Part shown: in pieces, positions 3,304 through 50,500 of the stretch
Numbering within the stretch: the first letter of the stretch is position 1
Layout: each line of letters opens with the position of its first letter
From: Candidatus Microgenomates bacterium
Lineage (GTDB): Bacteria > Patescibacteriota > JACPGU01
Reading direction: 5' to 3'
DNA: 64,000 nt
NCBI GenBank assembly: GCA_016188915.1
Contig: JACPGU010000002.1
Span: 85,287 to 149,286, forward strand
The notes under the pieces: model-generated
What the model was told of the DNA's origin: nothing
What the model saw: only the letters and a program-made list of their open reading frames with translations
The model's database searches: none
Translations under genes and position numbers: made by a program

Positions 3304-4501
3304 AATAAATATTATACAATACGATAGACAAACCTAGCAAAAACCAAAAATAAATCATCAGATCGTTTTTCCAAATGGTACTCTCAACCAATCCATGAGA
3401 CAAAACAGCCACCATGGAAGATAAGACCGAAATCGACAAAAGAAAATCTTTGGTCAATACTTTACTTAGCATTTTCAAAGATGATATTATCAGCCAGATA
3501 ATAGAGGCTACGCCCAATATTCCTATTTGTAGCCAAATATTAATAAGCATATTGTGTGGTGTAATAGCATGAGGGGTGACATATTCAGGATAATTTATTC
3601 TGCTTTTTGTATATTCCCCAAAGTAAGATTGAAAATTACCCAGTCCAACCCCCGCGATAGGGCTACCAACCCCTATCTCCCAGCTGGTGCGCCATATTTC
3701 TATTCTTATAGAATCAGACTTCTCTATACGACTACTGGGTATCACGCCAAATAAATAGAGTCCTTTTACTATAAAAAGCGCAACCAAAGAAAGCATTATC
3801 AAAGCACCCACAAAGCCAATCCAGCGATAGTGAAAAAACTTTTTTATGATTGTCCAGACAGCCAAAAAAACTAAAGCCACCAACAGCCCCATCCAGGCAC
3901 CTCTGGAAAAAGTAAGAAACAAACCAAACAATAAAACAAAAAGAGCTGCCCAGATAATCTTTTTATTTATTTTTTTATCGGACAAAAGCCCTATAAACAA
4001 AAATATCAGTGGCGTAATGTATAAAGATAAATAATTAGGCGAAGAAAAAATAGATCGCAATCTGCCGTCTTCTAAAAAATTCGGAATGCTAAAATAACCC
4101 AAAAAACCTATGCCCACTAATAAAACGCCAGAAGAGACAATTGCTAAAAAAGAATTGCATACCTCTTGGCGAGTTTTTATCAATGATATGAATAAAAAGA
4201 AAAATAATAAACTATCAAAAAAATATGCCTTAAAAATGCCCAAAGCCGATAATTTGTCTGGCGATACAAAAACTGCCGATATTCCAGACAACAAAAATAA
4301 AACTGCCGGTAAAAACAATTTGCTGGCAATTATTTTTTTTATAATATCGCCCGTTTTTCTATTCTTTATATTAATACCCAAAAATATAACGAAAGCTGTA
4401 TAAATCTCCAATTCTAAAATAGTTGAAGGAATATTAAAAATTTTTACCTTAATTAAATAAAGAGGCAAAGAAAAAAGAATTAAATAGATAAAATTTGCCA
4501 T
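3287..4501 (-). CDS. O-antigen ligase/Wzy-like polytopic membrane protein
   Basis: 404 aa with more than 10 predicted TM helices. Wzy_C-like motif FSRGAWMGLLVALVFL. Overlaps the downstream glycosyltransferase gene by 17 nt. Confidence 0.6.
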   Translation of the reverse strand: MANFIYLILFSLPLYLIKVKIFNIPSTILELEIYTAFVIFLGINIKNRKTGDIIKKIIASKLFLPAVLFLLSGISAVFVSPDKLSALGIFKAYFFDSLLFFFLFISLIKTRQEVCNSFLAIVSSGVLLVGIGFLGYFSIPNFLEDGRLRSIFSSPNYLSLYITPLIFLFIGLLSDKKINKKIIWAALFVLLFGLFLTFSRGAWMGLLVALVFLAVWTIIKKFFHYRWIGFVGALIMLSLVALFIVKGLYLFGVIPSSRIEKSDSIRIEIWRTSWEIGVGSPIAGVGLGNFQSYFGEYTKSRINYPEYVTPHAITPHNMLINIWLQIGILGVASIIWLIISSLKMLSKVLTKDFLLSISVLSSMVAVLSHGLVESTIWKNDLMIYFWFLLGLSIVLYNIYYAEKK

Positions 4502-20629: not shown

Positions 20630-22240
20630 TTAGCAATTGGAGAGGTCGCATAGTGGCCTAGTGCGCCGCCTTGGAAAGGCGGTATATCCGCAAGGGTATC
20701 GGGAGTTCGAATCTCCCCCTCTCCGTTTATAGGGATAGATGTGCCTTTTCTGTATTATCAGGAAGGGTTTTTTTAGTATAATATCGAGTTTTTTGTTAGT
20801 CAAAGTGAAGTTCGAACCGATTGTTTTCAGGATTTGCTTTTTCGTCTCCATATTTCCAGTTTCAAACTTTATTTTGGTGTAATAAGAGAAATTAAACAGT
20901 TCCTCTACTAGTTCGAGCTGACAGTATTCTTTGTCCCTCCATTTGTTCTCTAGTGTTGTTATTTCTTGTTCTTCCTGTATTGTTTCTTTGGAGAATTTTT
21001 CACAATCCTCTGAAGTGAAAAATCCATTATCTTCCAATATCTGTCTTTTCAGATTATCCATTTTCTTTTTATTGCTTTGCCTGCGTTGCTGAAGACCTTT
21101 CAATATCTCGGTCTGAGTTTTTATCTCCTGATTGTTATGCTCTCTTGCATATTTCAAGACCCATTCCTTGAATTTATCAGAGATAGTTATACTATTTATG
21201 GTTTCTAGTAATTGCCTGTCGAGCTCTTTAGCTACTATGTATGGTTGGGAGCACTTTATCGCTTTGTTCTTTCTTGTGCAACGGTAGTAGGTGTAGTATG
21301 GGGTTTTAATGCGAGTTGCGTGGCGGTTCCTGTGTTCCTCTGCTGTTATCGAGCAACCACATTCGCCACATTGTATTAGGCCAGTGAAATCAAAGTCGTG
21401 CTTTTGTTTTCTTGGCTTACCCTTACTTCCTAGGGCATCCTGAATGTAATCAAACTCCTCTGGCGTTATCAGGGATATATGATGGCCTTGCTTAATGCTT
21501 CCTCTGTGCTTAATCATTCCGTAGTAGAACGGGTCGGTCAAAATCCTATAAAATGTGCTCCTAGACATTGGGCCACCACCCATTTTTTTAGTTCTTGGAG
21601 TTCGGTAGCCATACTCATTGTTTAGTGTTTCCAGAGCCTGTCTAACTTCGTATTTGTCATACAGGATTAGCTCTAACGACTTTCTTATTAGGTTAAATCT
21701 CTCAGGGTCGGGGATGGATTCACTCAATCCCTCTCCCCTAGAACCATCGTTAATATATCCTGCTGGTGCAGAGCCAGGCCTTAACCCTCTCTCGAACTTC
21801 TGCCTATACCCCCTCAGGATATCCTCACTTTTATTGTCGTTTTCTAACTTTGCCTGATTGCAAATCATACTAAAAAGAAATTTATCATTGGGGGTATTTT
21901 TGAATACTTGGTTTGGTGTTCTAATTTCAGCTATTTTACCCGAATCCATCAGGTATACCAACATCCCAGTGTCGACAGAATTTCTCGATAACCTGTTTGC
22001 ATTCCAAGTAAGAATACCGTTAGCTTTATTATGTTCGAATCCCTTAATCATATCATTGAACACTGGTCTGCCAGGCTTCTTGGCGGTGTGAGATTCCTGT
22101 AATGTATCGCAAATATGTAAACCAATCTTTTTTGACAATACACTTAACTCCGCTATTTGTGACTCAATAGAAGCAGCCTGCTTCTCTTCTTGCTCTGACG
22201 ATTTTCTTGCGTATAGAATATAATTTATTTTTTCTTCCAT
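20630..22240 (-). CDS. large serine recombinase (integrase), 3' end antisense to tRNA-Ser
   Basis: 536 aa. Resolvase-type catalytic N-terminus YILYARKSSEQEEKQAASIESQ. Central recombinase domain and a Cys-rich zinc-ribbon region (CGECGCS...YYRCTRKNKAIKCSQPY). The last roughly 30 codons lie entirely within the tRNA-Ser gene on the opposite strand. Confidence 0.85.
   Translation of the reverse strand: MEEKINYILYARKSSEQEEKQAASIESQIAELSVLSKKIGLHICDTLQESHTAKKPGRPVFNDMIKGFEHNKANGILTWNANRLSRNSVDTGMLVYLMDSGKIAEIRTPNQVFKNTPNDKFLFSMICNQAKLENDNKSEDILRGYRQKFERGLRPGSAPAGYINDGSRGEGLSESIPDPERFNLIRKSLELILYDKYEVRQALETLNNEYGYRTPRTKKMGGGPMSRSTFYRILTDPFYYGMIKHRGSIKQGHHISLITPEEFDYIQDALGSKGKPRKQKHDFDFTGLIQCGECGCSITAEEHRNRHATRIKTPYYTYYRCTRKNKAIKCSQPYIVAKELDRQLLETINSITISDKFKEWVLKYAREHNNQEIKTQTEILKGLQQRRQSNKKKMDNLKRQILEDNGFFTSEDCEKFSKETIQEEQEITTLENKWRDKEYCQLELVEELFNFSYYTKIKFETGNMETKKQILKTIGSNFTLTNKKLDIILKKPFLIIQKRHIYPYKRRGGDSNSRYPCGYTAFPRRRTRPLCDLSNC
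20639..20725 (+). tRNA. tRNA-Ser (anticodon GGA), class II with long variable arm
   Basis: Hand-folded. Acceptor GGAGAGG/CCTCTCC, D-stem GCAT/GTGC, anticodon stem CCGCC/GGCGG with loop TTGGAAA, 6-bp variable arm ATATCC-GCAA-GGGTAT, T-stem GGGAG/CTCCC with loop TTCGAAT, discriminator G. Confidence 0.85.
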
Positions 22241-22953: not shown

Positions 22954-24249
22954 TTATATTCGTCGTTCTATAAATTTATCTTGAAACTTTTCAATAGTCT
23001 GGAACGACACTTCGTTGAAGTTAAATATCTTGAAAAGCTTTATGCATAAATCATTTGCTGTTTCTTTCCATAAAGACTTTAGTTTTACCGATGACACTCT
23101 TTCGTCCAAAGATACTACGGATTCACGACAAATATACCAATCGTAAAGCAAAATATTAAAGTCGTAGGATTTTAGCTTTCTATCTTCAGCACCGTAAAGT
23201 TTTATACCAATATCAATATCGCCATCGTAGTTTAGCTCATCTACATAAAACTGTTTAGAGAATAAGAGAAATTCTGTTATTGAGTATATGGCTCCTATAT
23301 AGCTTAATGCTTTGCCTGTGTCGGTTTCGTCCTGTTTTGCACCGTCTTCTCTTAGAGTGATTTTGTAAACAAAAAGACCGCTCTGGAAAAGACGGAAAGC
23401 TTCATAATGCTTTGGTTCAAATTTTGTCCACGACTGAACACCTTTTGAAAAGTTAGCAAAATCGTTTTTATCAAGATGTGGAAAATCCCACCCCCTCAAT
23501 TGAACTCTCTGGTTCTCAACTGCTTGTTTTACTTTGGTTATATCTGGAATTAAGTCTTTTTTATATTCGGTTGGTTTTACCACTATTTCCCAATATCCAT
23601 ATTTTTTTAACTCTTCTCCTATTTTTTTCTCGATATAGTCACTGGCTTCGACCAACTCATCCTTGTAATCGTCATTTTCTTCTGTATTGCTGGGTCTTCC
23701 ACTAAACAGTCGTCCAATCTGATTCAATAGAAAATCTCCTTTCTTGGTCATTGCCCTACCAAGTAATTCTCGCATTTCCGTTGAAGATGGTATGGCTTCG
23801 CTCGATCCCTTTTCCGTTCTAATATAAATGCCCCCATCTTTTAGTATCGGTTGCTGTTTTGTATTCTGATTACTCCTCTTGCATATTATTGGTTCTTCAT
23901 CGAATTCGGGTACTTCTATTATGACAAGGTTCTTTCCTTTATAAATAGGTCGTTGAACATAAACTGTAAATTTAGGGTCTGTATAACTATGCAATTTATT
24001 ATTAAAGGAAGTCTGGTCAAAGGACGCGAGATTCTCATCGGATAAACCCTCTACTGTGCCGTCATCCTTTATGCCAATAAAAATTCTCCCACCGTTTTTA
24101 GTGTTTGCCATCGCCAATATGTCTTTTATGACACCGAGATGACAATCTTTATCAGTGTTGCAATTAAAATCTTCCTTAAAGTCGACATTGGCTGTCTCTG
24201 CTCTCGATTTAAATATTTGCTCTAGCTCTTCTTCTGGGTATTGCGACAT
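22954..24249 (-). CDS. Schlafen-like AlbA_2 (putative DNA-binding) domain protein
   Basis: 431 aa. The N-terminal 120 aa, FKEDFNCNTDKDCHLGVIKDILAMANTKNGGRIFIGIKDDGTVEGL, match the AlbA_2/divergent-Schlafen pattern (E..EfK....DK...i.k.isAfANt.GG.l.iGv.DdG.i.G). The C-terminal 250 aa are unassigned. Confidence 0.55.
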   Translation of the reverse strand: MSQYPEEELEQIFKSRAETANVDFKEDFNCNTDKDCHLGVIKDILAMANTKNGGRIFIGIKDDGTVEGLSDENLASFDQTSFNNKLHSYTDPKFTVYVQRPIYKGKNLVIIEVPEFDEEPIICKRSNQNTKQQPILKDGGIYIRTEKGSSEAIPSSTEMRELLGRAMTKKGDFLLNQIGRLFSGRPSNTEENDDYKDELVEASDYIEKKIGEELKKYGYWEIVVKPTEYKKDLIPDITKVKQAVENQRVQLRGWDFPHLDKNDFANFSKGVQSWTKFEPKHYEAFRLFQSGLFVYKITLREDGAKQDETDTGKALSYIGAIYSITEFLLFSKQFYVDELNYDGDIDIGIKLYGAEDRKLKSYDFNILLYDWYICRESVVSLDERVSSVKLKSLWKETANDLCIKLFKIFNFNEVSFQTIEKFQDKFIERRI

Positions 24250-25223: not shown

Positions 25224-25805
25224 CTATTTGAAACTAGAAATCGCATTTTGTACTGTCGATTTTGAGATGTTTACCATACTTGCTATTCTCCTAACAGACA
25301 ACCCTTGCTGTCTTAATTCACTTATCCGAACAATATCAATCTCTGATGCTGGTCTGCCTATTTTCTTTCCTTTTGCTCTTGCCTTTGCCATTCCTGCCCT
25401 CACCCTCTCTTGGATTATTGACCTCTCAAATTCTGCGAAAGCAGATATCATTGTGAACATTACCTTCCCTGTCGGTGTCGATGTGTCTATCGCCTCTTGA
25501 TAGCTCACAAAGTCTATTCCTAGCGAATTAAAGGTATCCAGAGAGGTTATGAGTTGCTTTGTGCTTCTACTGAACCTATCAAAGCGAAATACCACCACAC
25601 AATCAAATTTTCTCTTGTGAGCGTCATTTAATAGCTCCGTAAGGGCCGGTCTGTTTTCTTTGCTTCCGCTATCCGTATCAGTGTAGCTTCTGAATACCTC
25701 CCAGCCTCTATTTTTCACATACTCTTGTAATGGTATCAGTTGGGTATCGAGGTCTTGGTTCTTATCTGTGGTACTTATACGAGCGTAGATTGCAATTTTT
25801 TTCAT
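25224..25805 (-). CDS. small serine recombinase (resolvase/invertase family)
   Basis: 193 aa. Catalytic N-terminus IAIYARISTTDKNQDLDTQ. C-terminal HTH LSVRRIASMVNISKSTVQNAI. Confidence 0.8.
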   Translation of the reverse strand: MKKIAIYARISTTDKNQDLDTQLIPLQEYVKNRGWEVFRSYTDTDSGSKENRPALTELLNDAHKRKFDCVVVFRFDRFSRSTKQLITSLDTFNSLGIDFVSYQEAIDTSTPTGKVMFTMISAFAEFERSIIQERVRAGMAKARAKGKKIGRPASEIDIVRISELRQQGLSVRRIASMVNISKSTVQNAISSFK

Positions 25806-25844
25806 ATCTTGTGGTTAGTTATATTGCTATTGGCACAAAACAAA

Positions 25845-25866
25845 AGCCTCGCATTTCTACGAGGCT
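25845..25866 (-). terminator. rho-independent terminator (minus strand)
   Basis: AGCCTCG-catttcta-CGAGGCT. Followed on the minus strand by TTTTGTTTTG. Lies 3' of yidD. Confidence 0.55.
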
Positions 25867-26003
25867 TTATTGTTGAGTAATTTCTCTTTTCTATTTTTCG
25901 GTTTTTTCTTTTCGCTCCCCATAACCAAAATTATTGTATAGATTTAGTATAGAATATGAACTATCTGTGTCAATAGTTATTGTCTATATGAGGCCAAATA
26001 TCA

Positions 26004-26219
26004 CTATGGGTAATCTATACAGCTCTCGAAATTGTCTGGGCGACATCGGTTAATACGATTGAGGGCTTTTCTTGTCCCCATTGTCACTCCATACTTCTCA
26101 ATAGCCAATATGGCATAATCGGAACAAGTTGGATAAAAACGGCACTGTATCCTGCGTCTCAAAAGTGGCGAAATTGTCTTCTGGTAGACAACTATTAAGA
26201 ATATAACTAATTTTGACAT
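26004..26219 (-). CDS. yidD: membrane protein insertion efficiency factor YidD
   Basis: 71 aa. The RFYPTCSDYA motif and overall pattern are typical of the YidD family. Confidence 0.75.
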   Translation of the reverse strand: MSKLVIFLIVVYQKTISPLLRRRIQCRFYPTCSDYAILAIEKYGVTMGTRKALNRINRCRPDNFESCIDYP

Positions 26220-26220
26220 C

Positions 26221-26478
26221 CTATAGTTCGTGTGTTATTTCTTCTTTTTTTATAGCTCGAGAACCACATTTTGGGCACTTGCCAAGGTCTAGTGGCTTTT
26301 TGTCTGGGATAAATGCAGCGGGGCCACAACCAGAACAGCACGATGCAGATTTGCCACAATTCTCCATCGATTCGCCACACGACTGTGCCGCTTCCTGCTT
26401 ACCATAGAACCAGATATTCCCACAAGCACTACAGCTACATTTTGTTTCCTTTATGATTTTGGGCTTTGTTTTTTCCAT
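26221..26478 (-). CDS. zinc-ribbon protein
   Basis: 85 aa with four CxxC pairs (CSCSAC, CCSGC, CPKC). Its end abuts the yidD start. Confidence 0.45.
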   Translation of the reverse strand: MEKTKPKIIKETKCSCSACGNIWFYGKQEAAQSCGESMENCGKSASCCSGCGPAAFIPDKKPLDLGKCPKCGSRAIKKEEITHEL

Positions 26479-26522
26479 ATTTCGTATTTAGTTAATAATA
26501 TGACAGTTGGGCTATTATTATC

Positions 26523-28073
26523 CTATTTGCAGGGTTCGTGTAGGGTTCTACTGGGATATGCTTTCTGTACAGCTTCTAAACTCGGAAAAGATTGTAGATA
26601 TTTTGTAGAGAGATTCTTATAGGCCGAGTCTGTATCGCAATAATAAAGATATGCTGTGCCATAAGAGCTCGCATAATAAGTGTGTCCAGATGTGGTTTGC
26701 GGGGCAGGGACTGGAGTGGGCGTTACTGGTGCTGGCACAGGGCTAGTTGGTGCTGGTGTGGTGGTAGTTGGTGACGAACTTGTTGTATTGCCGCTACAGG
26801 TAGTCGAGCTCCATAATCCCTTCTGCCCACTTCTCGCTTGTTTCTCTGCTTCTTTGAACTCGGCTTGGTATTTATATGGGATATCGTATGTATATTCGTG
26901 AGCATACCCATCACCAATCATTTGCTTGTTAAAAAATGTGCCATTTTCAAGATAAACATAACGCAATAGCCGACCATATTTGTCCCTATCCCCTTGAGTC
27001 GCATCAGATTCAAGCTTAACTTTCTTCCCCGAAAGCAATGCCTTCGCTCTATTGGAAGCCTCAACACCAAAACACTGAACTGGTTTTCGAGGGTCAACAG
27101 TTTCAGGAGTATCTACACCTATTAGACGAATCGTTTCTGTCTTTCCGCTAACACTGGCCTTAAAAGTATCGCCATCCGTTACGGAAACAACGCCATAATA
27201 CTGTGTAGTGGTCTGGGTGGGCGTTGTCTGGTTGCTCTGGGTGTTTGAACCAGAAGATGACTGACTAGCGTCCGTTTTGTTGTCTTCCCCTGTTGTTTGG
27301 GATTCTTGATTTGCCTCCTCCTTCTTTGGTGGAGTATAGGTTATTTTTATATCCTTTCTGTCGCTTTGATTCCCTGCTTCATCTATAGCTATAAGATAAA
27401 AATTGTTCTCTCCTTCATTCAGGCTGACTGAATCAACGGTAATTTCTTCGCTGGATTCTCGTACCTCTTTAATTTTTTTGTTGTCTGAACCAAAAAGTTC
27501 TATTCTTGCGTTTTTCTCTGTTTTTCCTTTTATATCTGTCTTGTCTTTGTCGCTAGTAATCTCTGTATTTTCAAGTTCTATGTTTGGCTTTTGTGTATCA
27601 AGAATAATTTTTTTAGTAGCACTTTTATTTGTACTGCCATTACTGTCTGTTGTGCTTACATAAACTGTGTTTTCACCTTCATTGAGCGTAAACTCTCCAA
27701 AAATGAACTTTCCGTTGGAATCGGCAATCACTTCTTGGATTTCTTGATTATTTATCATAAGTTTCGCTTTTGTCCCGCTTTCAATATGGTAGCCAGAGAC
27801 AACAACCGCCTTTTGATTAGTCGGACTTTTTATTTCATCTAAAAAAGGTTGTCCTTTTGCCGACAAGGACATTATCAGAATCAAAAACACCACAACAACT
27901 ATGGTGGCAATGATTTTATAGACTCGTCCCCATTTGGTCTTCGCCCAAATAGTCCAGACAGCAATAAAGGGTAATAAGAGAATGATAACTGGTAGTAAAA
28001 CGATGATGGCTACAATGCCCCACCATTTTGCATACCATCCTCTTTTTTTGGTTTTTACTTCGGTGTTTTCCAT
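26523..28073 (-). CDS. membrane-anchored secreted thermonuclease (SNase-like) with Ig-like domains
   Basis: 516 aa. N-terminal TM helix, then two beta-sandwich-like regions, then an SNase core VSVTDGDTFKASVSGKTETIRLIGVDTPETVDP...RDKYGRLLRYVY. Ends in a Pro/Thr-rich linker and a Cys-containing C-terminus. Confidence 0.7.
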   Translation of the reverse strand: MENTEVKTKKRGWYAKWWGIVAIIVLLPVIILLLPFIAVWTIWAKTKWGRVYKIIATIVVVVFLILIMSLSAKGQPFLDEIKSPTNQKAVVVSGYHIESGTKAKLMINNQEIQEVIADSNGKFIFGEFTLNEGENTVYVSTTDSNGSTNKSATKKIILDTQKPNIELENTEITSDKDKTDIKGKTEKNARIELFGSDNKKIKEVRESSEEITVDSVSLNEGENNFYLIAIDEAGNQSDRKDIKITYTPPKKEEANQESQTTGEDNKTDASQSSSGSNTQSNQTTPTQTTTQYYGVVSVTDGDTFKASVSGKTETIRLIGVDTPETVDPRKPVQCFGVEASNRAKALLSGKKVKLESDATQGDRDKYGRLLRYVYLENGTFFNKQMIGDGYAHEYTYDIPYKYQAEFKEAEKQARSGQKGLWSSTTCSGNTTSSSPTTTTPAPTSPVPAPVTPTPVPAPQTTSGHTYYASSYGTAYLYYCDTDSAYKNLSTKYLQSFPSLEAVQKAYPSRTLHEPCK

Positions 28074-28297
28074 ATCGTTTGGTTATTTATAAACACAAAA
28101 AAGGTCACCTGAACTAGCGGTGTAACCTTGCGGACACACCCGCTATCCTTTCGGATAGTGACCTCAACGACGAAGTACCAGTCAGATGACCGTTCTTGTC
28201 GTTGAGGATTTCATAACCATACCTCAAATTACTTCGAGGGTTAGGTTAATACTCTAAATTGTAAATATACTCTATCATAAAAATCTACCAGAGTAAA

Positions 28298-28930: not shown

Positions 28931-29120
28931 TTTGTTTTAGTTATGTTTTTATTTTAGTTTATGTACCCACTGTGTCAATAGGATTTTAGCTTAACCAAGG
29001 GTCTTTTCTGCCATCACACAACATCGTGTACAACCCTTGCTGTCTTGAATGATGGGTTTGATTTAAGTCATTATTTGTGCGATAATACAAGCGAATTACA
29101 GGTAATAGCGTGTAAAAACA

Positions 29121-31304: not shown

Positions 31305-31990
31305 GAAAAGCGCGGGGCGTGATGCCCCGCGATAAAATGTATGCTTCAAGCGATCTGCGAGGGGCGCAGATTGCCCAAAACATTACGCGTAATGTCTTAG
31401 TTTTAGTTTCCACTTCACACTATCCCCATAGTGCTTTTTCACCTCTTAATGCTGGCCAGCCACGAAGTTGTGATAATTCTCGAGATCTGACCTTGTCGAA
31501 ATCGTGAAGGACCTGGTGTTGCCGTCACAATCAGAGGCCGTCAGGGTGTCTCCTTTGTGAACCACTTTTCCCCCCAAACAACCAATGATTTCCCTCTCTT
31601 TTGTAGCTTCCCATAAAATCGGGAGTTCTTCTTTCCGCCCTTCTCTTACTGTTCCTTGATCTTGAGTTCGCATGCTCTGAGCCTTTCTGGTTCGTCTGCC
31701 GTAGACAGACTATGGTTTTTTCCTTCCTACTGAAAGGAAAGCTCTACTCTCCCTTCAGGGATTAGCCCCGAGTTATTCCCGGTTTGTTTTGGGACTAATC
31801 CAGTGCCGATAGATCACCTCCTTGCGTTCTCCTTGAGATTTTACACCAGAGCCCAGAAAGTAGGCTTTTATTTTTAAGGTCGGAAAGGTGTTCGCAACAA
31901 CATGGAGAGAAAACTGTCAGAGCATGCGAAGGCGAGCCAGTTTTCTCATCCATGTGTCGCGAACCTGCCGGAATAATAATCTTATGTTAG
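31305..31990. ncRNA. candidate large structured non-coding RNA (identity and strand unresolved)
   Basis: This is an ORF-free stretch of about 0.7 kb with visibly higher GC than the flanks. It contains local hairpins GCGGGGC-gtgat-GCCCCGC (31311-31332), ATCTGCG-aggg-CGCAGAT (31352-31374), CCTTCC-tactgaa-AGGAAAG and GGATTAG...CTAATCC. It also has a perfect 14-nt long-range complement GTTCGCATGCTCTGA (31668-31682) with TCAGAGCATGCGAA (31918-31932), and a crossing complement ATTCCCGG (31781-88) with CCGGAAT (31964-70). Confidence 0.35.
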
Positions 31991-43976: not shown

Positions 43977-46055
43977 TTATTCCGGACGTAATTTTTCCAT
44001 CTCGGTTAATTGCTTCGGAGAAGTAGTGATAATTTGATCTTCAGTATAGGAAGCAGTCACCTTTATGGCCACATGATTGACCCCGGCAAAAAATAATCCC
44101 TCTCCCACACGCGACTCCAAAAGCAAGGCTTTTTCGCCTTCGGTCAGATTAAAAGTCGTCCCCACAGACTCAATAGAAGCAGGAGACTGTTTCAAAAGAA
44201 GTTGCATGGAAGAGTTCGTTACGATTGCCCGACCATATTTTGAGCCCAAAAAATCTTCCACATCTTGTGTTATGGTAGTCAGTCCCAAAAAATATTTGCG
44301 GGCTCTTTTGGCGATAGAAAAAATGAATTTGGCCGCGTCTTCGTTCTCCATCATCAACCATGCCTCGTCTACTATGAGCATTCTTTTTCTTCTCTCGGCC
44401 CTGACTCTGGCCCAAATGTAATCCAAAATCATATACATCGCAATCGGCCGAAGAGAGGTCTCCAAATCACGGATATTAAAAACCACGAAACCTTTGTGCA
44501 AATCAATATTGGTCGGTTTATTAAAAATCCCCGCGAAAGTACCAGAAACGTATTTTTCCATCCTTTGCGCTAAAGACAAACCATTTTGTGTTCTCAATAA
44601 TAGATTATACAAATCCCCCATCAAAGGAGCAGGGTTTTTTTGTGATTTGGGATCTTTGGTAATTCCCTTACTCATATAAACTTCCAATAGGGAGTGCTCT
44701 ATGATAGCGTCTTCTTCGTTATTCAATTTACCAAGCAGAAGGTTGATTAATCCTTTGACGGTAATAATAGTGGCACGCAAATTATCTTCTCCAATATCCT
44801 CCGTGGCATCATCAGCCAAAGGCGGGACATCAAATGGATTGATACGTTCATTGGAGGAAAGAGAAAAATTCAGATAACTGCCACCCACTATACGACAAAG
44901 ATTTTGATATTCATTTTCTGGGTCAATAACCATCACGTCTACCCCCAACATCATATAGCGCAAAGCTTCTAATTTTACCGCGTAAGACTTACCGCCTCCA
45001 GACTTAGCAAAAACTACTGAATTGGCGTTTTCCAGCTCCTCAAAGCGGTCAAAAATAATCAAGCCACGATTGTGCCTATTGATGCCGTACATGATGCCTT
45101 TATTGCCAGTTAAATCCATGGAAGTGAAGGGGAAGCTGGTGGACAAAGACCCCGTATCCATATTGCGACGAATGTCCAAAAGATCCGCGCCCTGTGGAAT
45201 GGTAGAGCGAAAGCCTTGTGCCATCTGGAAATTGGCCCTTTTGGTGTAGATAAGATTGCCGCCCAAGGTTGTCTCTATATTTTTGGTAATTAGCTCCAAA
45301 TCATCTAAAGTTTTGGCATAAATCGTAAAATAAAGGCAAAAATGAAATAATTTTTCCTCACCGCGCGAGAGTCTGTCGCGCAGATCTTCAATGTCTTGCA
45401 TGGCTGTTTCCAGCTCGGGATTTCTAACCAGACCCTTCTGCGCTTCAATAGACAGGGCAGATTCTACTTGGCCCGATCTTTTACGCAAAGTATCCAGTGC
45501 TCCGCGCGACTCTATCGGATAAATAAACATGCCGATATCAATGGTTTGATCAATATTGATAATGGGAGATAGCCAATTAGGGAAAATGTAGCGCGGATAA
45601 TTAAAAACGAAAAGAGTACGCACATAATAATCGTTAAGCATCAGATAGGAAGGCAAGGCCTGCAAGGAAGAAGGAGAGATTAAGTCACGAATAGAGGCCA
45701 AACCTTTTTCATAAGTTTCCTGCGCTTCTTTTTCTCTTTTTATTTGCTCTTGTTTTTTGTGTTCCGTCTCTTTTTGACGAGCCAATTCTTCAGGGCTCAT
45801 TTTTGGCCCAAACAAAGAAAATCCTTTTGGAGGAGACGCTGGCGATGGTGAAATAGGCGCGGGAGGAGGAGTAACCGGAGCAGGGCTTGGGCTAGAAGCC
45901 TTGGGAGCGCTCTGATAGGCCGAATAGATGCCAGCCGGAGCAGAAACAGGAATAGTAGAAGCAGGCGCGCTTTGTGGCGGCTTGATTGCGTCAAAAGTTT
46001 TTTGATTTTGGTTGTCTGGTTTTGATTCGGGCATAATCTCTCCACGATCTAACAA
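43977..46055 (-). CDS. VirB4/TraC/PrgJ-family type IV secretion ATPase-like protein
   Basis: 692 aa. Walker A VVFAKSGGGKSYAVKLEALRYMMLGVDVMVIDPENEYQNL. Walker B RKRMLIVDEAWLMMENEDAAKFI. About 100 aa of Pro/Ser/Ala-rich low-complexity N-terminus. Confidence 0.65.
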   Translation of the reverse strand: MLDRGEIMPESKPDNQNQKTFDAIKPPQSAPASTIPVSAPAGIYSAYQSAPKASSPSPAPVTPPPAPISPSPASPPKGFSLFGPKMSPEELARQKETEHKKQEQIKREKEAQETYEKGLASIRDLISPSSLQALPSYLMLNDYYVRTLFVFNYPRYIFPNWLSPIINIDQTIDIGMFIYPIESRGALDTLRKRSGQVESALSIEAQKGLVRNPELETAMQDIEDLRDRLSRGEEKLFHFCLYFTIYAKTLDDLELITKNIETTLGGNLIYTKRANFQMAQGFRSTIPQGADLLDIRRNMDTGSLSTSFPFTSMDLTGNKGIMYGINRHNRGLIIFDRFEELENANSVVFAKSGGGKSYAVKLEALRYMMLGVDVMVIDPENEYQNLCRIVGGSYLNFSLSSNERINPFDVPPLADDATEDIGEDNLRATIITVKGLINLLLGKLNNEEDAIIEHSLLEVYMSKGITKDPKSQKNPAPLMGDLYNLLLRTQNGLSLAQRMEKYVSGTFAGIFNKPTNIDLHKGFVVFNIRDLETSLRPIAMYMILDYIWARVRAERRKRMLIVDEAWLMMENEDAAKFIFSIAKRARKYFLGLTTITQDVEDFLGSKYGRAIVTNSSMQLLLKQSPASIESVGTTFNLTEGEKALLLESRVGEGLFFAGVNHVAIKVTASYTEDQIITTSPKQLTEMEKLRPE

Positions 46056-46069
46056 TATAACGATTTTAT

Positions 46070-46798
46070 TTATCCTATCTCCATCTCTTCTGGCAATTTT
46101 TCTATAATCTCGGCCTCCATCTGCGAAGGATCAATTAATTTTTGCGTCACCGCCTGATCGGGATTGTAGGTGCCATAAAAAAGCTCAATTAGGTCCTGGC
46201 TGACTAATTGCGAGATTTTTATACCCACTCCCTGCAAACCACTGGCCGTAGTAGCTACTTTTTGCATCAAATATTTTCTTTCATCAACAAAATTATTTAC
46301 AGCCACCGTCCCTTTGGCCCCAAAAAATCGACTCATTCCACCAATCTTGGCTACTCCGGCAGGATAATGGGAAATAACTACAAAAAATCTTTTTTGCATA
46401 ATGTTGGATTGCGTAATCAGCTCGCGAACATAATTAATATATTCTGCCATCTGCGTTCGCAAAAGCTCATTGGATTCTTGGTTTTTTCTTTCCTCAATAG
46501 TTTTCAAATAAACATCCAAATCCAGTCTCCTGGATTGCAATACTATCTGAATAGGAAAATCCAAAGAATTCAAAAAGCTTTGATAGCCATAAATAATAGA
46601 GTCGCGCTCTATCTCTGATTTCAATTCAAAATTGACTGCCGAACACATCAAAACAGCCTTCATACTACCGTCTTTTAGGATCAGAATGCCTTCGCGTATT
46701 TGATCAATATCTAAAAAAGACTGAGTGGCTGTGCTTTTTGCGGTCGATGCTTCCAGCGACGGATTGGTAATATTTTTTTGTGTTTTATTATCTGCCAT
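46070..46798 (-). CDS. hypothetical protein co-operonic with T4SS-like genes
   Basis: 242 aa, no TM helix, no motif. There is a 14-nt gap to the ATPase gene. Confidence 0.4.
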   Translation of the reverse strand: MADNKTQKNITNPSLEASTAKSTATQSFLDIDQIREGILILKDGSMKAVLMCSAVNFELKSEIERDSIIYGYQSFLNSLDFPIQIVLQSRRLDLDVYLKTIEERKNQESNELLRTQMAEYINYVRELITQSNIMQKRFFVVISHYPAGVAKIGGMSRFFGAKGTVAVNNFVDERKYLMQKVATTASGLQGVGIKISQLVSQDLIELFYGTYNPDQAVTQKLIDPSQMEAEIIEKLPEEMEIG

Positions 46799-46851
46799 CA
46801 GAATATTTGATTATTTGCCTACTTGATTAGTTGATTACTTGTTTGCTCCTA

Positions 46852-47478
46852 TCATTTCTTTGCTATCACGCCAGACAATGATGCCGCCAGATCTCGGAAG
46901 TCAGTGGTCTCTCTAGGGGTCACTGTCACATTTTCCAAAGCTTGCTCCAGGTCAGAAAAAACATCCTCCAAATCTTCTTCTATATTAGCATCTGCCACCG
47001 GGGCATTGGCAACTCCAACAATACGATCGGGGCTTATGCTACCACCTACCGCTCCGTGCGTATCCATAATGGTAGCCAATTCCGCCAAACGTGACTCTAT
47101 TATCCCGCTAGCCGCTTGACGGGCAATACCTTTTTTAGATTCTTCTGATTCAACCACTGACTGAGTTACCATATTTTTTACCCTTACCGATTTTTGCCAA
47201 GTTTTAATCTTCGGCTCTATAGTAAAAGCAGTAAAGAAAAGTAAAAAGTCCAAAAATGGCCTCTCATTAATTTTGACAAAGATCAAAGCGAAGCTCAAAG
47301 TAACCACCGGCAAAGCCAAAATAATGAAAAGGAGAAAGTTAGTAGAAGCAATAGCCAGATAAAGGACATAGGTAATCGCGCCACCCCCCACCATATACAA
47401 AAATTGCTTGAGCGTAAAGGGCCCGAATATTTTGTCTTCAATATCTATATTTTGCGGTATTTTATAATTGTCTTGCAT
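46852..47478 (-). CDS. PrgI/VirB3-like small two-TM protein
   Basis: 208 aa. The N-terminus ...KIFGPFTLKQFLYMVGGGAITYVLYLAIA is followed by a second TM helix, matching the PrgI-family pattern. The C-terminal 100 aa are acidic. Confidence 0.5.
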   Translation of the reverse strand: MQDNYKIPQNIDIEDKIFGPFTLKQFLYMVGGGAITYVLYLAIASTNFLLFIILALPVVTLSFALIFVKINERPFLDFLLFFTAFTIEPKIKTWQKSVRVKNMVTQSVVESEESKKGIARQAASGIIESRLAELATIMDTHGAVGGSISPDRIVGVANAPVADANIEEDLEDVFSDLEQALENVTVTPRETTDFRDLAASLSGVIAKK

Positions 47479-47505
47479 AAAAATTAACTAAAATCATTAC
47501 CTCGT

Positions 47506-50500
47506 TTATGGACCATAGTATATACCAGAAGTAGGCTGGCCTTGACTCGGTGGCTCTTTCTTTTTAGAGGCTGTTTTTTCTTGAACAGCTTTACCGCTAG
47601 CCAAGGTTCCGATATTTTTCTTTAATATTCCCTCTCTTGCCCAATCAATAGCCCTGGTAGTAGCGTCTATCTGCATTCTGATTTCCTCAGGATCAATCTG
47701 GTCAGTCTCTCGTCCGGCAAACTGCGGAGCAAAAACTTCTTTGGCTTTTCTAATCGCTTCAGAAAAATTATTCTGTAAATCATTAGTGATGCCCTGCATA
47801 TCATTCGTAATCTTTGTATACAACCCTTGTTCATTGCCTCCATACATCTGCAAAACTGATGGATTATCCAAAAATCCTTTTAACCGACTAGCGGCTTGCA
47901 ACTGCACATCATTTTTGCGACGAGCAAAAATCTGATCTAGATTGGAACGAATATTAACATTTTTCATAATCTTGGCCAGATCGCCAGCGTTATCACCTGG
48001 AGGCATCTCTAGATTCGCGTCCGACATATCCAGCTTTACATCAATACCATTTTCAGACAACACTTTGTTTATCTCGTCTTGGTCTCCGCTCATCATTGTT
48101 CTCTTAATAGCGTCTTTGGCGTCTTGAGAGATACCATTCTTTAAATTCATCAAAAACTGGTCTATCGTTCCATCTTGAGCAAACATATCACTTTTATTTC
48201 TAGCGCTAGCTTGCGCCAGATAACCCCATTGCTTGGATTCCAAAAGCCCAGTATCCATACTGCTAGCCTGCTGGCGTGGCATAGTAGTCAACAATTTTTC
48301 CGCCTCTTCGACAGGATTGAACCCCTCTGGAACGGGTTTGTATTTCTCTGGTTTGTCAAAGCCTTCTTCTCCGGCAAATTTAGATTGCCTTTTCATTTTC
48401 TCAACCGAATCCATAGTGATTCTATCTTCGCGGCTTACGCCCAAAGACTGGAAAAATCCTCTGGCTTCTTCTTGCCTTCTGGCGCCTTTTTCGCCGTTGC
48501 TTAACATCTGTAAGGCCTTCAAGGCAATGGCCCTTTCTTTATCGCTTTTATCGTTCATCAAAGTATTATACAGAGCCGAAGCAGCCACGCCCTGATCGGC
48601 TTTCTTCTGCGCTTCTTCTTTAATCTCCAACTCGGAGGCTCTCTTTGCCCACTTAGTAAAGGCACCTCTACTACTAGCCTTGCCAAAGGCTTTTTCTTGT
48701 TCTTTTTGAAATCTTTCGGCATTTTCTTCTATCATCTTGGGAGCGTTCTGGATAGTCAGTCCAGCGCTGGTGCCTTTTTTGGCTACTCTTGCCAATCCAT
48801 ATTTTAATTTTCCCCACCCACTAGAGTCTTTCAAATTGCCTTGATCGTCTTTGAACGTTTTGTCCAAATCCATAGAAGCCACTTTTTGTCTTTGTCCTTT
48901 GAGCCTTGCCCCCGCTGCTTTTTTCAAAGATTTAGCCGTAGCACTACCCAAAGGACCTTTTTTGCCACTAGCATATTCGGAAACCGCTTTCATAATATCA
49001 CCCCCCGCTTTCATCGGATAAGTGGCCGCGATATACAAGATCACTCCGGCTGTGATGAGTTGTAAAAGTCTCGGGGTGTCAGAAGTATATTCCGCATCAG
49101 GCAGAGGAGCTACCTCTAGCCCTGCCACAGCGATAGTTTTGGCCGCGACATACAAAAGCAGGGCCACCATCGGTCCCATCATCGCCCACTTCATAAACAT
49201 ATCCCACCATTTGCCGGTCTGCTCTTTGATTGCTTTGACCGGCGCGACATTAGCCAAATAGGGAATGGCCGAAAACATAAACAAAATATTCAAAACTATT
49301 ACCCGAACCCAAAGCAAAAGATATAGATAAAGCAAAATAATAGAAAAAGCCCAGGACAAAATAACTTGAACAAGGGCCGCGCCAAAAGTTTTATCGGCCA
49401 ATTGGTCAATAGTTTCCTTGCCCAGACCAAAAAGAGAATCTAAGGAAGCGCTGGAGCTAGTCGCATTTGGCTCGCCGAAAAGGAAAAAATTGGTCAAAAC
49501 ATTCATAAAAAGAATAATGAAATTGCAAATCGCCAAAGAAAAATTAACCAGTAAAATAGCTCCCACAATAGCCGGAATCATTCGACGAAACTGCCAAGTC
49601 TTCAAATCATAGCCAACAATATTAAGTAGTGCCATCGCCAAAAAAGAAAGCAAAAAGCCAATATTAATAATATTTCTAATAGTTCCCCAGACTTCCACTA
49701 CCTGATTATTACCTTCGGTCACCCCATAAACCAGCAGAACTTTTGACAAAAGCTCCGGATTGATCCAACCAAAAATAAATCTTTTTATCGCCAAAAGCAG
49801 AGACAAAAACCAACAACCGATACTGACAAAAACATCATGTTTTCCGGAAAACAATGTGAAAAAATTATAACTTGGCGGACAAGTATTTTTATTTGCTCCA
49901 GGCCCTAGTGGGTCTTTGCTCAAAGACTGTTCTCCTTTTAATTCCAATAATTCTTCTATTTCCTCCGATTTCTGAACAAAAGCTGTATATTCCGAACAAT
50001 CGCTTAGCGCCCCCGAACAAGAGCTATTGATAGCGGTTTGAGCCAACAATACGACTGTTTGCATATTGCTGATTTCTGTGGTTGCTTTTGTACAAGCATC
50101 TACTCTTTCTTGTGAAATTTCGTTGCCATCTTTGTCTTTGGCCTCATCGCCATTTTTAACAAAATAACAGAAATCTTTACTACTAGGTTTCCAGCGATCT
50201 CTTTCTGCCATAAAAGCCTCTGTGTCTGCCGTGCTAATATTTTTCAATTCTTCTGCTGTTTGCACTGCTCTGGTGTCCTCTACTATTTTTGAATAAAGAT
50301 CTTGCAGTTTTGTTATTGATTCTTTTTCTTCATCGGAAAGTTCATTTAACTGACTATAGGTCAAATTCTGAGGAGTATTGTCATAATAAGCCACCTGAAG
50401 ACCCCAATCTTTGAGAACATTTTCCATGGCAGAATCAAGCTGATTGGCATTTTGTCCTGTTATTCTTTCTACAAAAACCATCTTTGACTCATCTGTATAC

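What the first reader, a model, noticed from the sequence alone, without database searches (positions are those of the whole stretch)
26004..28073. Operon coupling a membrane-anchored secreted thermonuclease, a Zn-ribbon protein and a second-context yidD
A 516-aa protein combines an N-terminal TM anchor, Ig-like sandwich regions and a staphylococcal-nuclease (SNase) catalytic core. It is followed by a 4x CxxC zinc-ribbon protein and a YidD homolog whose start overlaps the zinc-ribbon gene's end. YidD is normally encoded with rnpA/yidC. Here it is island-borne and co-transcribed with a membrane nuclease, which suggests a dedicated insertion helper. An extracellular nuclease fits nucleotide scavenging or DNA-uptake biology in a reduced genome.
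Basis: partly seen in the sequence, partly recalled or inferred. Interest (0 to 1): 0.5.

Follow-up and report, generated by a model that had tools for sequence, protein, structure and literature searches.

The report
LOOT RNA-led nuclease and YidD operon
The three genes are real, but the nuclease and the zinc-ribbon/YidD pair are two independent modules joined here behind a structured leader RNA (LOOT, an orphan motif), which appears to switch on surface-protein genes in these tiny bacteria.

Summary
The three minus-strand genes exist as described: a 516-aa membrane-anchored Ig-like/SNase nuclease with intact catalytic residues, an 85-aa Cys-rich zinc-ribbon protein (ZnR) and a 71-aa YidD. 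Two details are wrong. ZnR and yidD do not overlap (TAG-G-ATG), and only two CxxC knuckles are conserved.

The reading "YidD is the nuclease's dedicated insertion helper" has no support from gene order:
- None of 80 related nuclease loci carries ZnR or YidD.
- None of 55 ZnR loci carries a nuclease.
- ZnR and YidD form an obligate pair (51/55 loci, 4/4 from the YidD side, one natural fusion).
- This YidD subfamily has a fourth Cys. It occurs on mobile DNA in Patescibacteria, a Bacillus relative and methanogens.
- Canonical relatives sit in rpmH-rnpA-yidD-yidC.

LOOT precedes the nuclease gene on the same strand in 29 of the 80 loci. It also precedes ZnR-YidD in 11 of 42 distinct pairs. I found a covarying 3' helix that competes with LOOT's middle hairpin and ends in a U-run. 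About a third of leaders also carry a copy of one stem strand at the start codon.

Best reading: LOOT is a cis-acting switch. Its trigger is unknown.

The parts
28269..28297 (-). Promoter-like site for the leader: TTTACT (28297-28292), 17-nt spacer, TAGAGT (28274-28269). It is followed by the conserved 5' element TTTACAATTT (28265-28256).
   Evidence: Read from the sequence. In most of 42 LOOT loci listed, a -10-like box and an ACAAYT element lie at equivalent positions upstream. The consensus scanner did not call this site, so it is inferred.
28119..28247 (-). LOOT RNA core (Rfam RF03000): CCUAA...AUGG junction, middle stem with apical hairpin, a GAAA-capped hairpin and a GCAA-capped hairpin.
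   Evidence: Scores 74.2 bits against a gathering score of 46.4, E 4e-12, full-length match. My own model gives 81.9 bits.
28095..28118 (-). 3' tail of the leader, outside the Rfam model. UCAGGUGACC (28112-28103) pairs with GGUCAUCUGA (28191-28182) in the middle hairpin and is followed by U6 (28102-28097). This is a terminator-like alternative helix.
   Evidence: RNAalifold and pair counts: 92.8% paired against at most 49% when slid, 12 of 15 pairs compensatory, 0 of 500 shuffles. In 43 sequences 98% are paired. Window duplex -23.2 kcal/mol, z -6.5. The helix is part of the window leader's minimum-energy fold, z -5.09.
26523..28073 (-). Membrane-anchored thermonuclease: N-terminal hydrophobic anchor, two Ig-like domains, low-complexity linker, SNase domain (residues 295-425), Pro/Thr linker, and a conserved ~50-aa Cys/His C-terminal module.
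26221..26478 (-). ZnR: an 85-aa zinc-ribbon protein (C16xxC19 ... C68xxC71) with a conserved hydrophobic CCxGC(L)PA(L)FI centre. It is the obligate partner of this YidD subfamily.
   Evidence: The structure model is low-confidence, with three strands consistent with a zinc ribbon.
26004..26219 (-). YidD-subfamily protein (71 aa) with the C-terminal signature RCRPDNFESCIDYP, which adds a fourth Cys. Its ATG lies one base after the ZnR stop.
25843..25868 (-). Terminator-like hairpin with an 11-bp stem followed by a T-rich tail, closing the transcription unit before the resolvase gene.

Best explanation
The locus is one transcription unit on a roughly 11-kb island integrated at tRNA-Ser in a Candidatus Microgenomates (Patescibacteria/CPR) genome.

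Order of parts: own promoter, a roughly 200-nt LOOT leader RNA, the nuclease gene, ZnR and yidD (one base apart, so probably translationally coupled), then a terminator.

LOOT most likely acts in cis as a conformational switch:
- ON state (the Rfam fold): the middle stem and its apical hairpin form, and the 3' tail is free. Transcription and translation proceed.
- OFF state: the tail invades the apical hairpin and forms a 14-15-bp helix that runs into a U-tract. This looks like a terminator.
- In about a third of leaders the freed 3' strand of the middle stem can also pair with a copy of its partner placed just before the start codon, which would block translation.
- The trigger (a small ligand, an ion or a protein) is unknown.

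The nuclease is a membrane-anchored, outward-facing, Ca2+-dependent SNase-type enzyme. It probably degrades extracellular DNA/RNA for nucleotide supply.

ZnR-YidD is a separate, horizontally mobile two-protein module, physically coupled and probably membrane-associated. It recurs under LOOT control in other genomes.

The window's operon is thus a one-off joining of two LOOT-regulated modules, not a dedicated nuclease-plus-helper system.

Shown: gene content, catalytic residues, the synteny statistics, LOOT's position, and covariation of the alternative helix.
Inferred: cis-regulation, the ON/OFF logic, outward topology, and the biochemical role of ZnR-YidD.
For: LOOT position:
- LOOT scores above Rfam's gathering score 45 nt upstream of the ATG on the same strand.
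- LOOT occurs in 32 of 80 SNase loci. It lies upstream and co-oriented in 29: about 18 directly, 11 with one or two small ORFs between.
- LOOT lies upstream of ZnR-YidD in 11 of 42 distinct pairs.
- It also precedes trypsin-like peptidase, DUF4352, G5, Ig-like and zinc-ribbon membrane proteins.
- A -10-like box and an ACAAYT element lie upstream of LOOT in most loci.
- In the window only about 23 nt separate the U-run from the ATG, which leaves no room for a separate promoter.

Switching:
- The new long-range helix covaries strongly. Mean duplex energy is -24.4 kcal/mol, z -5.7, in 43 leaders.
- A copy of the middle stem's 5' strand lies 3-8 nt before the ATG in about 13 of 33 leaders. Nine of these exceed all 200 shuffles.
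- Two platform types give the same logic. In one the tail is followed directly by a U-run. In the other a relay of antiterminator and canonical terminator follows, as in L014, L016, L017, L023 and L029.

Module independence:
- 0 of 80 SNase loci carry ZnR or YidD, and 0 of 55 ZnR loci carry SNase.
- ZnR-YidD adjacency holds in 51 of 55 loci. The four exceptions are at contig ends.
- It also holds for 4 of 4 loci chosen by YidD similarity. One natural fusion protein exists, P0395.

Nuclease: catalytic and Ca2+ residues are intact. Many homologues carry a single N-terminal hydrophobic segment.
Against: - No experiment or transcript data exist. Rfam lists LOOT as 'Gene; sRNA'.
- The long helix plus U-run could simply be the RNA's own terminator.
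- Loci were collected through SNase and ZnR, so LOOT's full set of downstream genes is sampled with bias.
- LOOT is absent from 48 of 80 SNase loci and from 31 of 42 ZnR-YidD pairs.
- The start-codon copy is weak in the window itself (6 bp).
- Minimum-energy folds differ between loci.
- The claim that the middle stem and the full long helix cannot coexist is a topological argument, not a measurement.
- Nuclease topology rests on hydropathy and homology only.
- The function of ZnR-YidD is unknown.
Confidence: 0.6

Rival explanations
1. YidD, with ZnR, is a dedicated membrane-insertion helper co-transcribed with the anchored nuclease to aid its insertion. In the softened form it helps whichever anchored surface protein shares its LOOT operon.
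For: - The three genes share one transcription unit.
- In all eight LOOT-led ZnR-YidD loci that have a called co-oriented neighbour, that neighbour is a predicted membrane protein. These are SNase (window), G5 (L122), an Ig-like protein (L108), unknown N-anchored proteins (L116, L119), a zinc-ribbon membrane protein (L111) and an OB-fold membrane protein (L104, L106).
- From my own knowledge: E. coli YidD is reported to improve YidC-dependent insertion.
Against: - None of 80 SNase loci has ZnR or YidD, so the nuclease family does without it.
- None of 55 other ZnR loci has an SNase.
- Many ZnR-YidD pairs have no membrane-protein neighbour.
- The pair also occurs in a Bacillus-relative ICE/prophage region and in a methanogen, next to replication and transfer genes.
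- Membrane proteins are common in these genomes, so adjacency is weak evidence.
Confidence: 0.2
2. LOOT is a stand-alone trans-acting small RNA with its own promoter and terminator. It merely travels with nuclease and other cargo genes on mobile DNA.
For: - Rfam classifies LOOT as 'Gene; sRNA'.
- LOOT has its own -10-like box.
- The leader ends in a strong helix followed by U's, like an sRNA terminator.
- Several LOOT loci are on islands with recombinases.
Against: - Strand and position are consistent: LOOT is co-oriented with the sampled gene in all but 2 of the LOOT-bearing loci.
- Gaps to the next start codon are too short for a second promoter.
- Start-codon copies of the stem strand covary with the stem.
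- Relay terminators lie downstream in one subgroup.
- Two mutually exclusive helices both show covariation.
Confidence: 0.15
3. The locus is island-borne defence or addiction cargo. ZnR-YidD would be a toxin-antitoxin-like pair, with a membrane-active YidD-like protein held in check by ZnR. The nuclease would act against foreign DNA.
For: - The pair consists of small, overlapping, obligately paired genes that spread horizontally across bacteria and archaea.
- Neighbours include Schlafen/AlbA_2 (PADLOC PDC-S50, 9e-12), R-M methylases, DUF3800, integrases and recombinases.
- The nuclease matches the PADLOC candidate 'SNc+LTD'.
- From my own knowledge: PF01809 was once called the 'haemolytic domain'.
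Against: - ZnR and YidD match no PADLOC or PHROG family.
- The PADLOC match of the nuclease covers only the generic SNase domain.
- The nuclease family is widespread in Patescibacteria, with more than 2000 homologues, many beside housekeeping genes.
- An outward-facing nuclease cannot attack injected DNA.
- A natural ZnR-YidD fusion is unusual for toxin-antitoxin pairs.
Confidence: 0.1

Closest known systems
LOOT RNA motif (Rfam RF03000; Weinberg et al. 2017, PMC5737381; Rfam 14 paper PMC7779021)
   Same: The window has a full-length match above the gathering score, with the same helices and conserved CCUAA / AUGG / GAAA nucleotides.
   Different: - The papers I could read describe LOOT only as a metagenome-derived RNA, and Rfam types it 'sRNA'. 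No function is given.
- Here it sits in named Patescibacteria genomes as a 5' leader of nuclease, ZnR-YidD and other surface-protein genes.
- It has about 25 more conserved nucleotides at the 3' end. These form a covarying helix that excludes the model's apical hairpin.
- I could not read the 2017 supplement, so the original authors may have noted some gene association.
Staphylococcal nuclease / thermonuclease family (PF00565; NCBIfam NucI, EcnA)
   Same: The SNase fold aligns over residues 295-425. The catalytic residues, Ca2+ ligands and substrate-contacting Tyr residues are kept.
   Different: - The protein scores well below the NucI and EcnA equivalog cut-offs (125 against 250, and 72 against 180).
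- It carries an N-terminal membrane anchor, two Ig-like domains and a Patescibacteria-specific Cys/His C-terminal module.
- It is controlled by a LOOT leader.
YidD, membrane protein insertion efficiency factor (PF01809 / TIGR00278), as in rpmH-rnpA-yidD-yidC operons
   Same: It passes both family cut-offs. The core CRFYPTCSxY...G...RC motif is conserved, and it is 49-57% identical to canonical 69-aa YidDs.
   Different: - It is not next to rnpA or yidC.
- It is obligately paired with a zinc-ribbon protein.
- Its C-terminus reads RC(R/N)PDNxESCID(Y/F)P, with a fourth Cys, where canonical YidDs have RCHPxxPGGxD.
- It is found on mobile DNA, including in archaea.
2'-dG-II riboswitches upstream of endonuclease I and ComEC genes (as summarised in PMC8872408)
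   Same: This is a precedent for a structured 5' leader controlling genes that act on extracellular DNA.
   Different: There is no sequence or structure similarity. The purine-riboswitch fold is a different fold, and LOOT's ligand, if it has one, is unknown. The comparison is an analogy only.

Membership tests
SNase / thermonuclease (PF00565) | Profile match above the curated cut-off | tested here: met
   95.6 bits against a cut-off of 21, E 3e-27. PDB staphylococcal nuclease matches at E 3e-19.
SNase / thermonuclease (PF00565) | Catalytic Arg/Glu/Arg and Ca2+-binding Asp/Asp/Thr | tested here: met
   R316, E324 and R368, with D302, D321 and T322, align to R35, E43, R87 and D21, D40, T41 of staphylococcal nuclease (residue roles recalled from my own knowledge). 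D302, R316, E324 and R368 are invariant and D321 and T322 at least 90% conserved in 35 homologues.
SNase / thermonuclease (PF00565) | Secreted or outward-facing catalytic domain | tested here: inconclusive
   Two hydrophobic segments, starting near residues 12 and 47, are flanked by Lys/Arg-rich stretches. Many homologues have a single N-terminal segment. No topology predictor was available.
NCBIfam NucI / EcnA equivalogs | Score above the equivalog cut-off | tested here: not met
   125.4 against 250, and 72.1 against 180.
YidD (PF01809, TIGR00278) | Profile match above the curated cut-offs and the conserved CRFxPTCSxY...RC motif | tested here: met
   77.4 bits against 27, and 74.2 against 40. 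The motif is seen in alignment A6.
YidD (PF01809, TIGR00278) | Location in the rpmH-rnpA-yidD-yidC neighbourhood | tested here: not met
   No rnpA, yidC, rpmH or jag in the window. The closest relatives sit beside ZnR. Canonical relatives sit in the operon.
YidD (PF01809, TIGR00278) | Improves YidC-dependent membrane-protein insertion | not testable with these tools
   This needs genetics or biochemistry.
LOOT RNA (RF03000) | Covariance-model score above the gathering score over the full model | tested here: met
   74.2 bits against 46.4, model positions 1-121.
Riboswitch / cis-regulatory leader | Conserved structured RNA in the 5' UTR, co-oriented with the regulated genes | tested here: met
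   LOOT lies upstream and co-oriented in 29 SNase loci and 11 ZnR-YidD pairs. A promoter-like box lies upstream, and the gaps to the ATG are short.
Riboswitch / cis-regulatory leader | Expression platform with mutually exclusive helices | tested here: met
   The covarying tail helix overlaps the apical hairpin. Terminator relays and start-codon copies are also present.
Riboswitch / cis-regulatory leader | Binds a specific ligand that changes expression | not testable with these tools
   No ligand can be inferred. In-line probing or reporter assays are needed.
Zinc ribbon | Two CxxC knuckles on a three-stranded sheet | tested here: inconclusive
   C16xxC19 and C68xxC71 are invariant. No Pfam family scores above its cut-off. 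The AlphaFold model has pLDDT 62, with strands at 8-16, 22-25 and 76-84.
Toxin-antitoxin / defence system | Match to a known defence or toxin-antitoxin family | tested here: not met
   ZnR and YidD have no PADLOC or PHROG match.

The most novel reading that the evidence does not exclude
LOOT is a new riboswitch class that turns on a 'surface and scavenging' set of genes in Patescibacteria: nuclease, protease, adhesin-like proteins and ZnR-YidD. Its signal could be a nucleic-acid breakdown product or a metal ion such as Zn2+ or Ca2+. ZnR-YidD would be a previously unrecognised, horizontally mobile two-protein membrane-biogenesis module found in both bacteria and archaea.
Probability: 0.3. Interest if true: 0.8.

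Novelty: new variant of a known kind. Interest (0 to 1): 0.6.

Why it matters
- LOOT is an orphan structured RNA. The papers I could read record no organism or function for it. Placing it in named Patescibacteria genomes, directly upstream of a defined gene set and with a covarying alternative helix, turns it into a testable switch. The constructs, mutations and candidate ligands can now be specified.
- Patescibacteria depend on scavenged nucleotides, so how they control an outward-facing nuclease bears on their lifestyle.
- YidD is a widespread but poorly understood protein. A subfamily that is always paired with, and once fused to, a zinc-ribbon protein and that moves between bacteria and archaea gives a new handle on what YidD-type proteins do.
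- The result also corrects an attractive but unsupported reading: co-transcription in one genome is not evidence of a dedicated partnership.

Tried and rejected
- **Literature:** The main text of the 2017 paper does not mention LOOT and no supplement is held. A plain 'YidD' search returned only unrelated hits. No paper links Patescibacteria with thermonuclease.
- **blastn with the window's LOOT** found nothing convincing in other loci. The family is visible only to covariance models.
- **An unbiased DNA-pattern scan for LOOT** in the large collections was designed and then dropped. Patterns with enough specified bases either covered one subclade only or would give thousands of chance hits.
- **ZnR structure prediction** gave pLDDT 62, so I ran no fold search.
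- **MAFFT alignment of the middle stem** is out of register between subgroups. I therefore rely on Rfam's model and on inspection for that stem, not on my own pair counts.
- **LOOT was not found** in the Heyndrickxia, Methanoregula, L149, L150, L151, L152 or L155 loci.
Full report
**1. What is there**

On the minus strand lie three tightly packed ORFs:
- 26523-28073 (516 aa)
- 26221-26478 (85 aa)
- 26004-26219 (71 aa)

The exact 516-aa protein is on record as 'thermonuclease family protein [Candidatus Microgenomates bacterium]' on a 311,798-bp contig. The 85-aa protein carries the locus tag HYV44_01665.

The nuclease:
- Pfam finds SNase (3e-27, residues 314-423) and Big_13 above its cut-off (91-160), with weaker Big_6 and Glucodextran_B matches.
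- Aligned to staphylococcal nuclease, D302, D321 and T322 match the residues I recall as its Ca2+ ligands D21, D40 and T41. R316, E324 and R368 match the catalytic R35, E43 and R87.
- D302, R316, E324 and R368 are invariant and D321 and T322 at least 90% conserved in 35 homologues.
- Two hydrophobic segments sit at the N-terminus. Many homologues carry a single N-terminal hydrophobic segment. I therefore infer that the catalytic domain faces outward.

The other two genes:
- YidD passes PF01809 and TIGR00278.
- The ZnR stop (TAG, 26223-26221) and the yidD ATG (26219-26217) are one base apart. They do not overlap.
- ZnR has three CxxC motifs. Across homologues only C16xxC19, C47 and C68xxC71 are invariant.

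**2. Context**

The genes lie between tRNA-Ser (20638-20726) with a 536-aa serine recombinase on one side and pyruvate kinase on the other. Alongside them are a Schlafen/AlbA_2 protein, a small resolvase and several unknown ORFs. Housekeeping genes flank the block.

A partial copy of the tRNA 3' end lies at 31618-31639. This suggests an island of roughly 11 kb.

tblastn finds no yidC, rnpA, rpmH, jag or second yidD anywhere in the window.

**3. The missed element**

Rfam places a LOOT RNA (RF03000) at 28119-28247 on the same strand, 45 nt upstream of the nuclease ATG. It scores 74.2 bits against a gathering score of 46.4.

The papers I could read describe LOOT only as a metagenome-derived RNA with unusually many cross-covariations. 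Rfam types it 'sRNA', and no function is given.

**4. Is the three-gene arrangement conserved? No.**

| Sample | Result |
|---|---|
| 80 loci encoding related nucleases, nearly all labelled Patescibacteria | None has ZnR or YidD within 3 kb |
| 55 metagenomic ZnR loci | None has an SNase |
| Same 55 ZnR loci | 51 have a YidD-like ORF directly adjacent; the other four are at contig ends |
| Distinct ZnR-YidD pairs | 42 |
| Four closest YidD relatives with long contigs | All preceded by a ZnR homologue |

- The pair is usually ordered ZnR then YidD, with 1- or 4-nt overlaps or short gaps. One clade has the reverse order.
- The four YidD-side loci are Heyndrickxia faecalis (in an ICE/prophage-like region), Methanoregula, a Patescibacteria genome and one unlabelled genome.
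- More distant 69-aa YidDs sit in rpmH-rnpA-yidD-yidC-jag.
- The ZnR-linked subfamily has a C-terminal RC(R/N)PDNxESCID(Y/F)P with a fourth Cys, where canonical YidDs have RCHPxxPGGxD.
- A sensitive profile search finds only 243 ZnR representatives. One of them, P0395, is a natural ZnR-YidD fusion.

ZnR-YidD is therefore a module in its own right, and the nuclease is not part of it.

**5. What the two modules share is LOOT**

- Rfam's model finds LOOT upstream and co-oriented in 15 of the first 17 nuclease loci tested. It also finds LOOT directly upstream of ZnR-YidD in L007.
- A model built from these hits finds LOOT in 32 of 80 nuclease loci. In 29 it lies upstream of the nuclease ORF: about 18 directly, 11 with one or two ORFs between.
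- The intervening ORFs include zinc-ribbon membrane proteins, DUF4352 and unknown membrane proteins.
- In two loci of one Staskawiczbacteria genome LOOT precedes a trypsin-like peptidase.
- LOOT precedes ZnR-YidD in 11 of 42 distinct pairs. An N-terminally anchored G5, Ig-like or unknown protein often lies between LOOT and ZnR, or an OB-fold membrane protein follows YidD.
- The closest full-architecture relative of the window's nuclease (P0002) is also LOOT-led. It sits on an island with a 536-aa serine recombinase.
- LOOT was absent from the Firmicute and archaeal ZnR-YidD loci.

**6. Evidence that LOOT acts in cis and switches**

(a) Own promoter. In most of the 42 leaders listed, a -10-like box and a conserved ACAAYT element precede LOOT. 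The window has TTTACT-17-TAGAGT followed by TTTACAATTT.

(b) No room for a second promoter. Gaps to the next start codon are short, and in the window only about 23 nt follow the U-run.

(c) A new covarying helix.
- About 25 nt beyond the Rfam model are conserved. They pair with the 5' strand, loop and 3' strand of the model's apical hairpin.
- On a structure-blind MAFFT alignment 92.8% of cells pair, against at most 49% when the partner is slid. Twelve of 15 pairs show compensatory changes, and no shuffle of 500 matches this.
- In 43 sequences 98% pair.
- Mean duplex energy is -24.4 kcal/mol, z -5.7.
- This helix and the apical hairpin cannot form together.
- A 15-bp helix between a closed hairpin loop and a tail attached to a long mRNA is topologically implausible. 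I therefore infer that it also competes with the middle stem.

(d) Two platform types, one logic.
- The helix runs into a U-rich tract. In the window this is UCAGGUGACC followed by U6, at 28112-28097.
- In one subgroup (L014, L016, L017, L023, L029) the tail instead feeds a relay of an antiterminator hairpin and a canonical terminator.
- Both designs give the same logic: tail free means ON.

(e) A start-codon copy. In about 13 of 33 leaders a copy of the middle stem's 5' strand lies 3-8 nt before the start codon. Nine of these beat all 200 shuffles. The stem's 3' strand could therefore sequester the initiation region once released. In the window this copy is weak (6 bp).

(f) Strong folding. 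The window leader folds at -67.8 kcal/mol, z -5.09, and the long helix is part of the minimum-energy fold.

From my own knowledge, LOOT's most conserved bases, CCUAA(C/A)...(U/C)AUGG, resemble the 11-nt GAAA-tetraloop receptor. One hairpin is capped by GAAA. Much of the conservation may therefore be architectural.

**7. Mechanism and its limits**

I conclude that the window holds one LOOT-led operon in which two independently LOOT-regulated modules have been joined.

- The nuclease most likely degrades extracellular nucleic acid.
- 2'-dG-II riboswitches upstream of endonuclease I and ComEC are a precedent for leader control of such genes.
- The trigger of LOOT and the biochemical role of ZnR-YidD remain unknown.
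- The sampling of LOOT contexts is biased by how the loci were collected.
- The sRNA reading and a defence or toxin-antitoxin reading are not excluded.

**8. Verdict**

The yidD context is non-canonical, but no dedicated link to the nuclease exists.

The value lies in three results: LOOT's likely role as a cis-regulator, the extended structure with a switching helix, and the conserved ZnR-YidD pair.

Noticed in passing
window 25298-25314 and 29030-29046: A 17-nt exact direct repeat, ACAACCCTTGCTGTCTT, with unrelated flanks. None is expected by chance. One copy lies inside the small resolvase gene (codons RQQGL of its HTH). The other is intergenic, upstream of the 210-aa ORF's promoter. Together they bracket the resolvase 5' part, yidD, ZnR, the nuclease, LOOT and the 210-aa ORF (3.7 kb). 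This may be a nested cassette or an att core.
   Followed up: partly
window 20638-20726, 20630-22240 and 31618-31639: The 536-aa large serine recombinase ORF overlaps tRNA-Ser(GGA) on the opposite strand. A 22-nt partial copy of the tRNA 3' end (11 nt exact) lies 10.9 kb away. These are the likely ends of the island.
   Followed up: partly
window 25943-25976 and 28948-28981: Two copies of a 34-nt promoter-like sequence (CTATTGACACAG..., each matching 11 of 12 consensus positions). One lies upstream of the 210-aa ORF. The other lies just after yidD, about 80 nt before the strong terminator at 25843-25868, so it could drive a short RNA.
   Followed up: no
window 22954-24249: A 431-aa Schlafen/AlbA_2 protein matches the PADLOC candidate PDC-S50 (9e-12). 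Schlafen/AlbA_2 genes also sit two genes from ZnR-YidD in the unrelated loci L002-L006.
   Followed up: partly
P0395 (metagenomic protein, 159 aa): A natural fusion of the ZnR domain (residues 5-73) and a YidD domain (about 94-159). It lacks the fourth Cys of the subfamily.
   Followed up: partly
L148 (Methanoregula sp., 2521-3349) and hit P0139 (Methanogenium sp.): The ZnR-YidD pair is present in methanogenic archaea. In L148 it lies a few genes from a DUF5906 gene, which I take to be mobile-element-associated, so it appears to move between domains.
   Followed up: partly
window 26523-26681 (residues 465-516 of the nuclease): A conserved C-terminal module of about 50 aa (GHxFYTSSYxTxKYYYCDTDxGWKxLSxKYLKSF...YPSRTLHEPC) is shared by most Patescibacteria nucleases and has no Pfam or NCBIfam match. 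A few relatives carry an Excalibur-like DxDxDGxxC end instead.
   Followed up: no
window 43977-50877 and 54394-55581: A type IV secretion-like cluster: a VirB4/TraC-like ATPase split into two ORFs, a PrgI-family protein, a 1123-aa unknown protein and, nearby, an SLT lytic transglycosylase.
   Followed up: no
L153 2661-5344: The closest full-architecture relative of the nuclease lies on another island, with a 536-aa serine recombinase and an MmeI-like restriction-modification gene. It is preceded by LOOT (104 bits) and two small ORFs, and a copy of the stem strand lies before an ATG.
   Followed up: partly
L116 214-361 (minus strand) and 4144-4287 (plus strand): Two LOOT copies lie in one 10-kb locus on opposite strands. 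What the first one precedes lies beyond the end of the locus.
   Followed up: no
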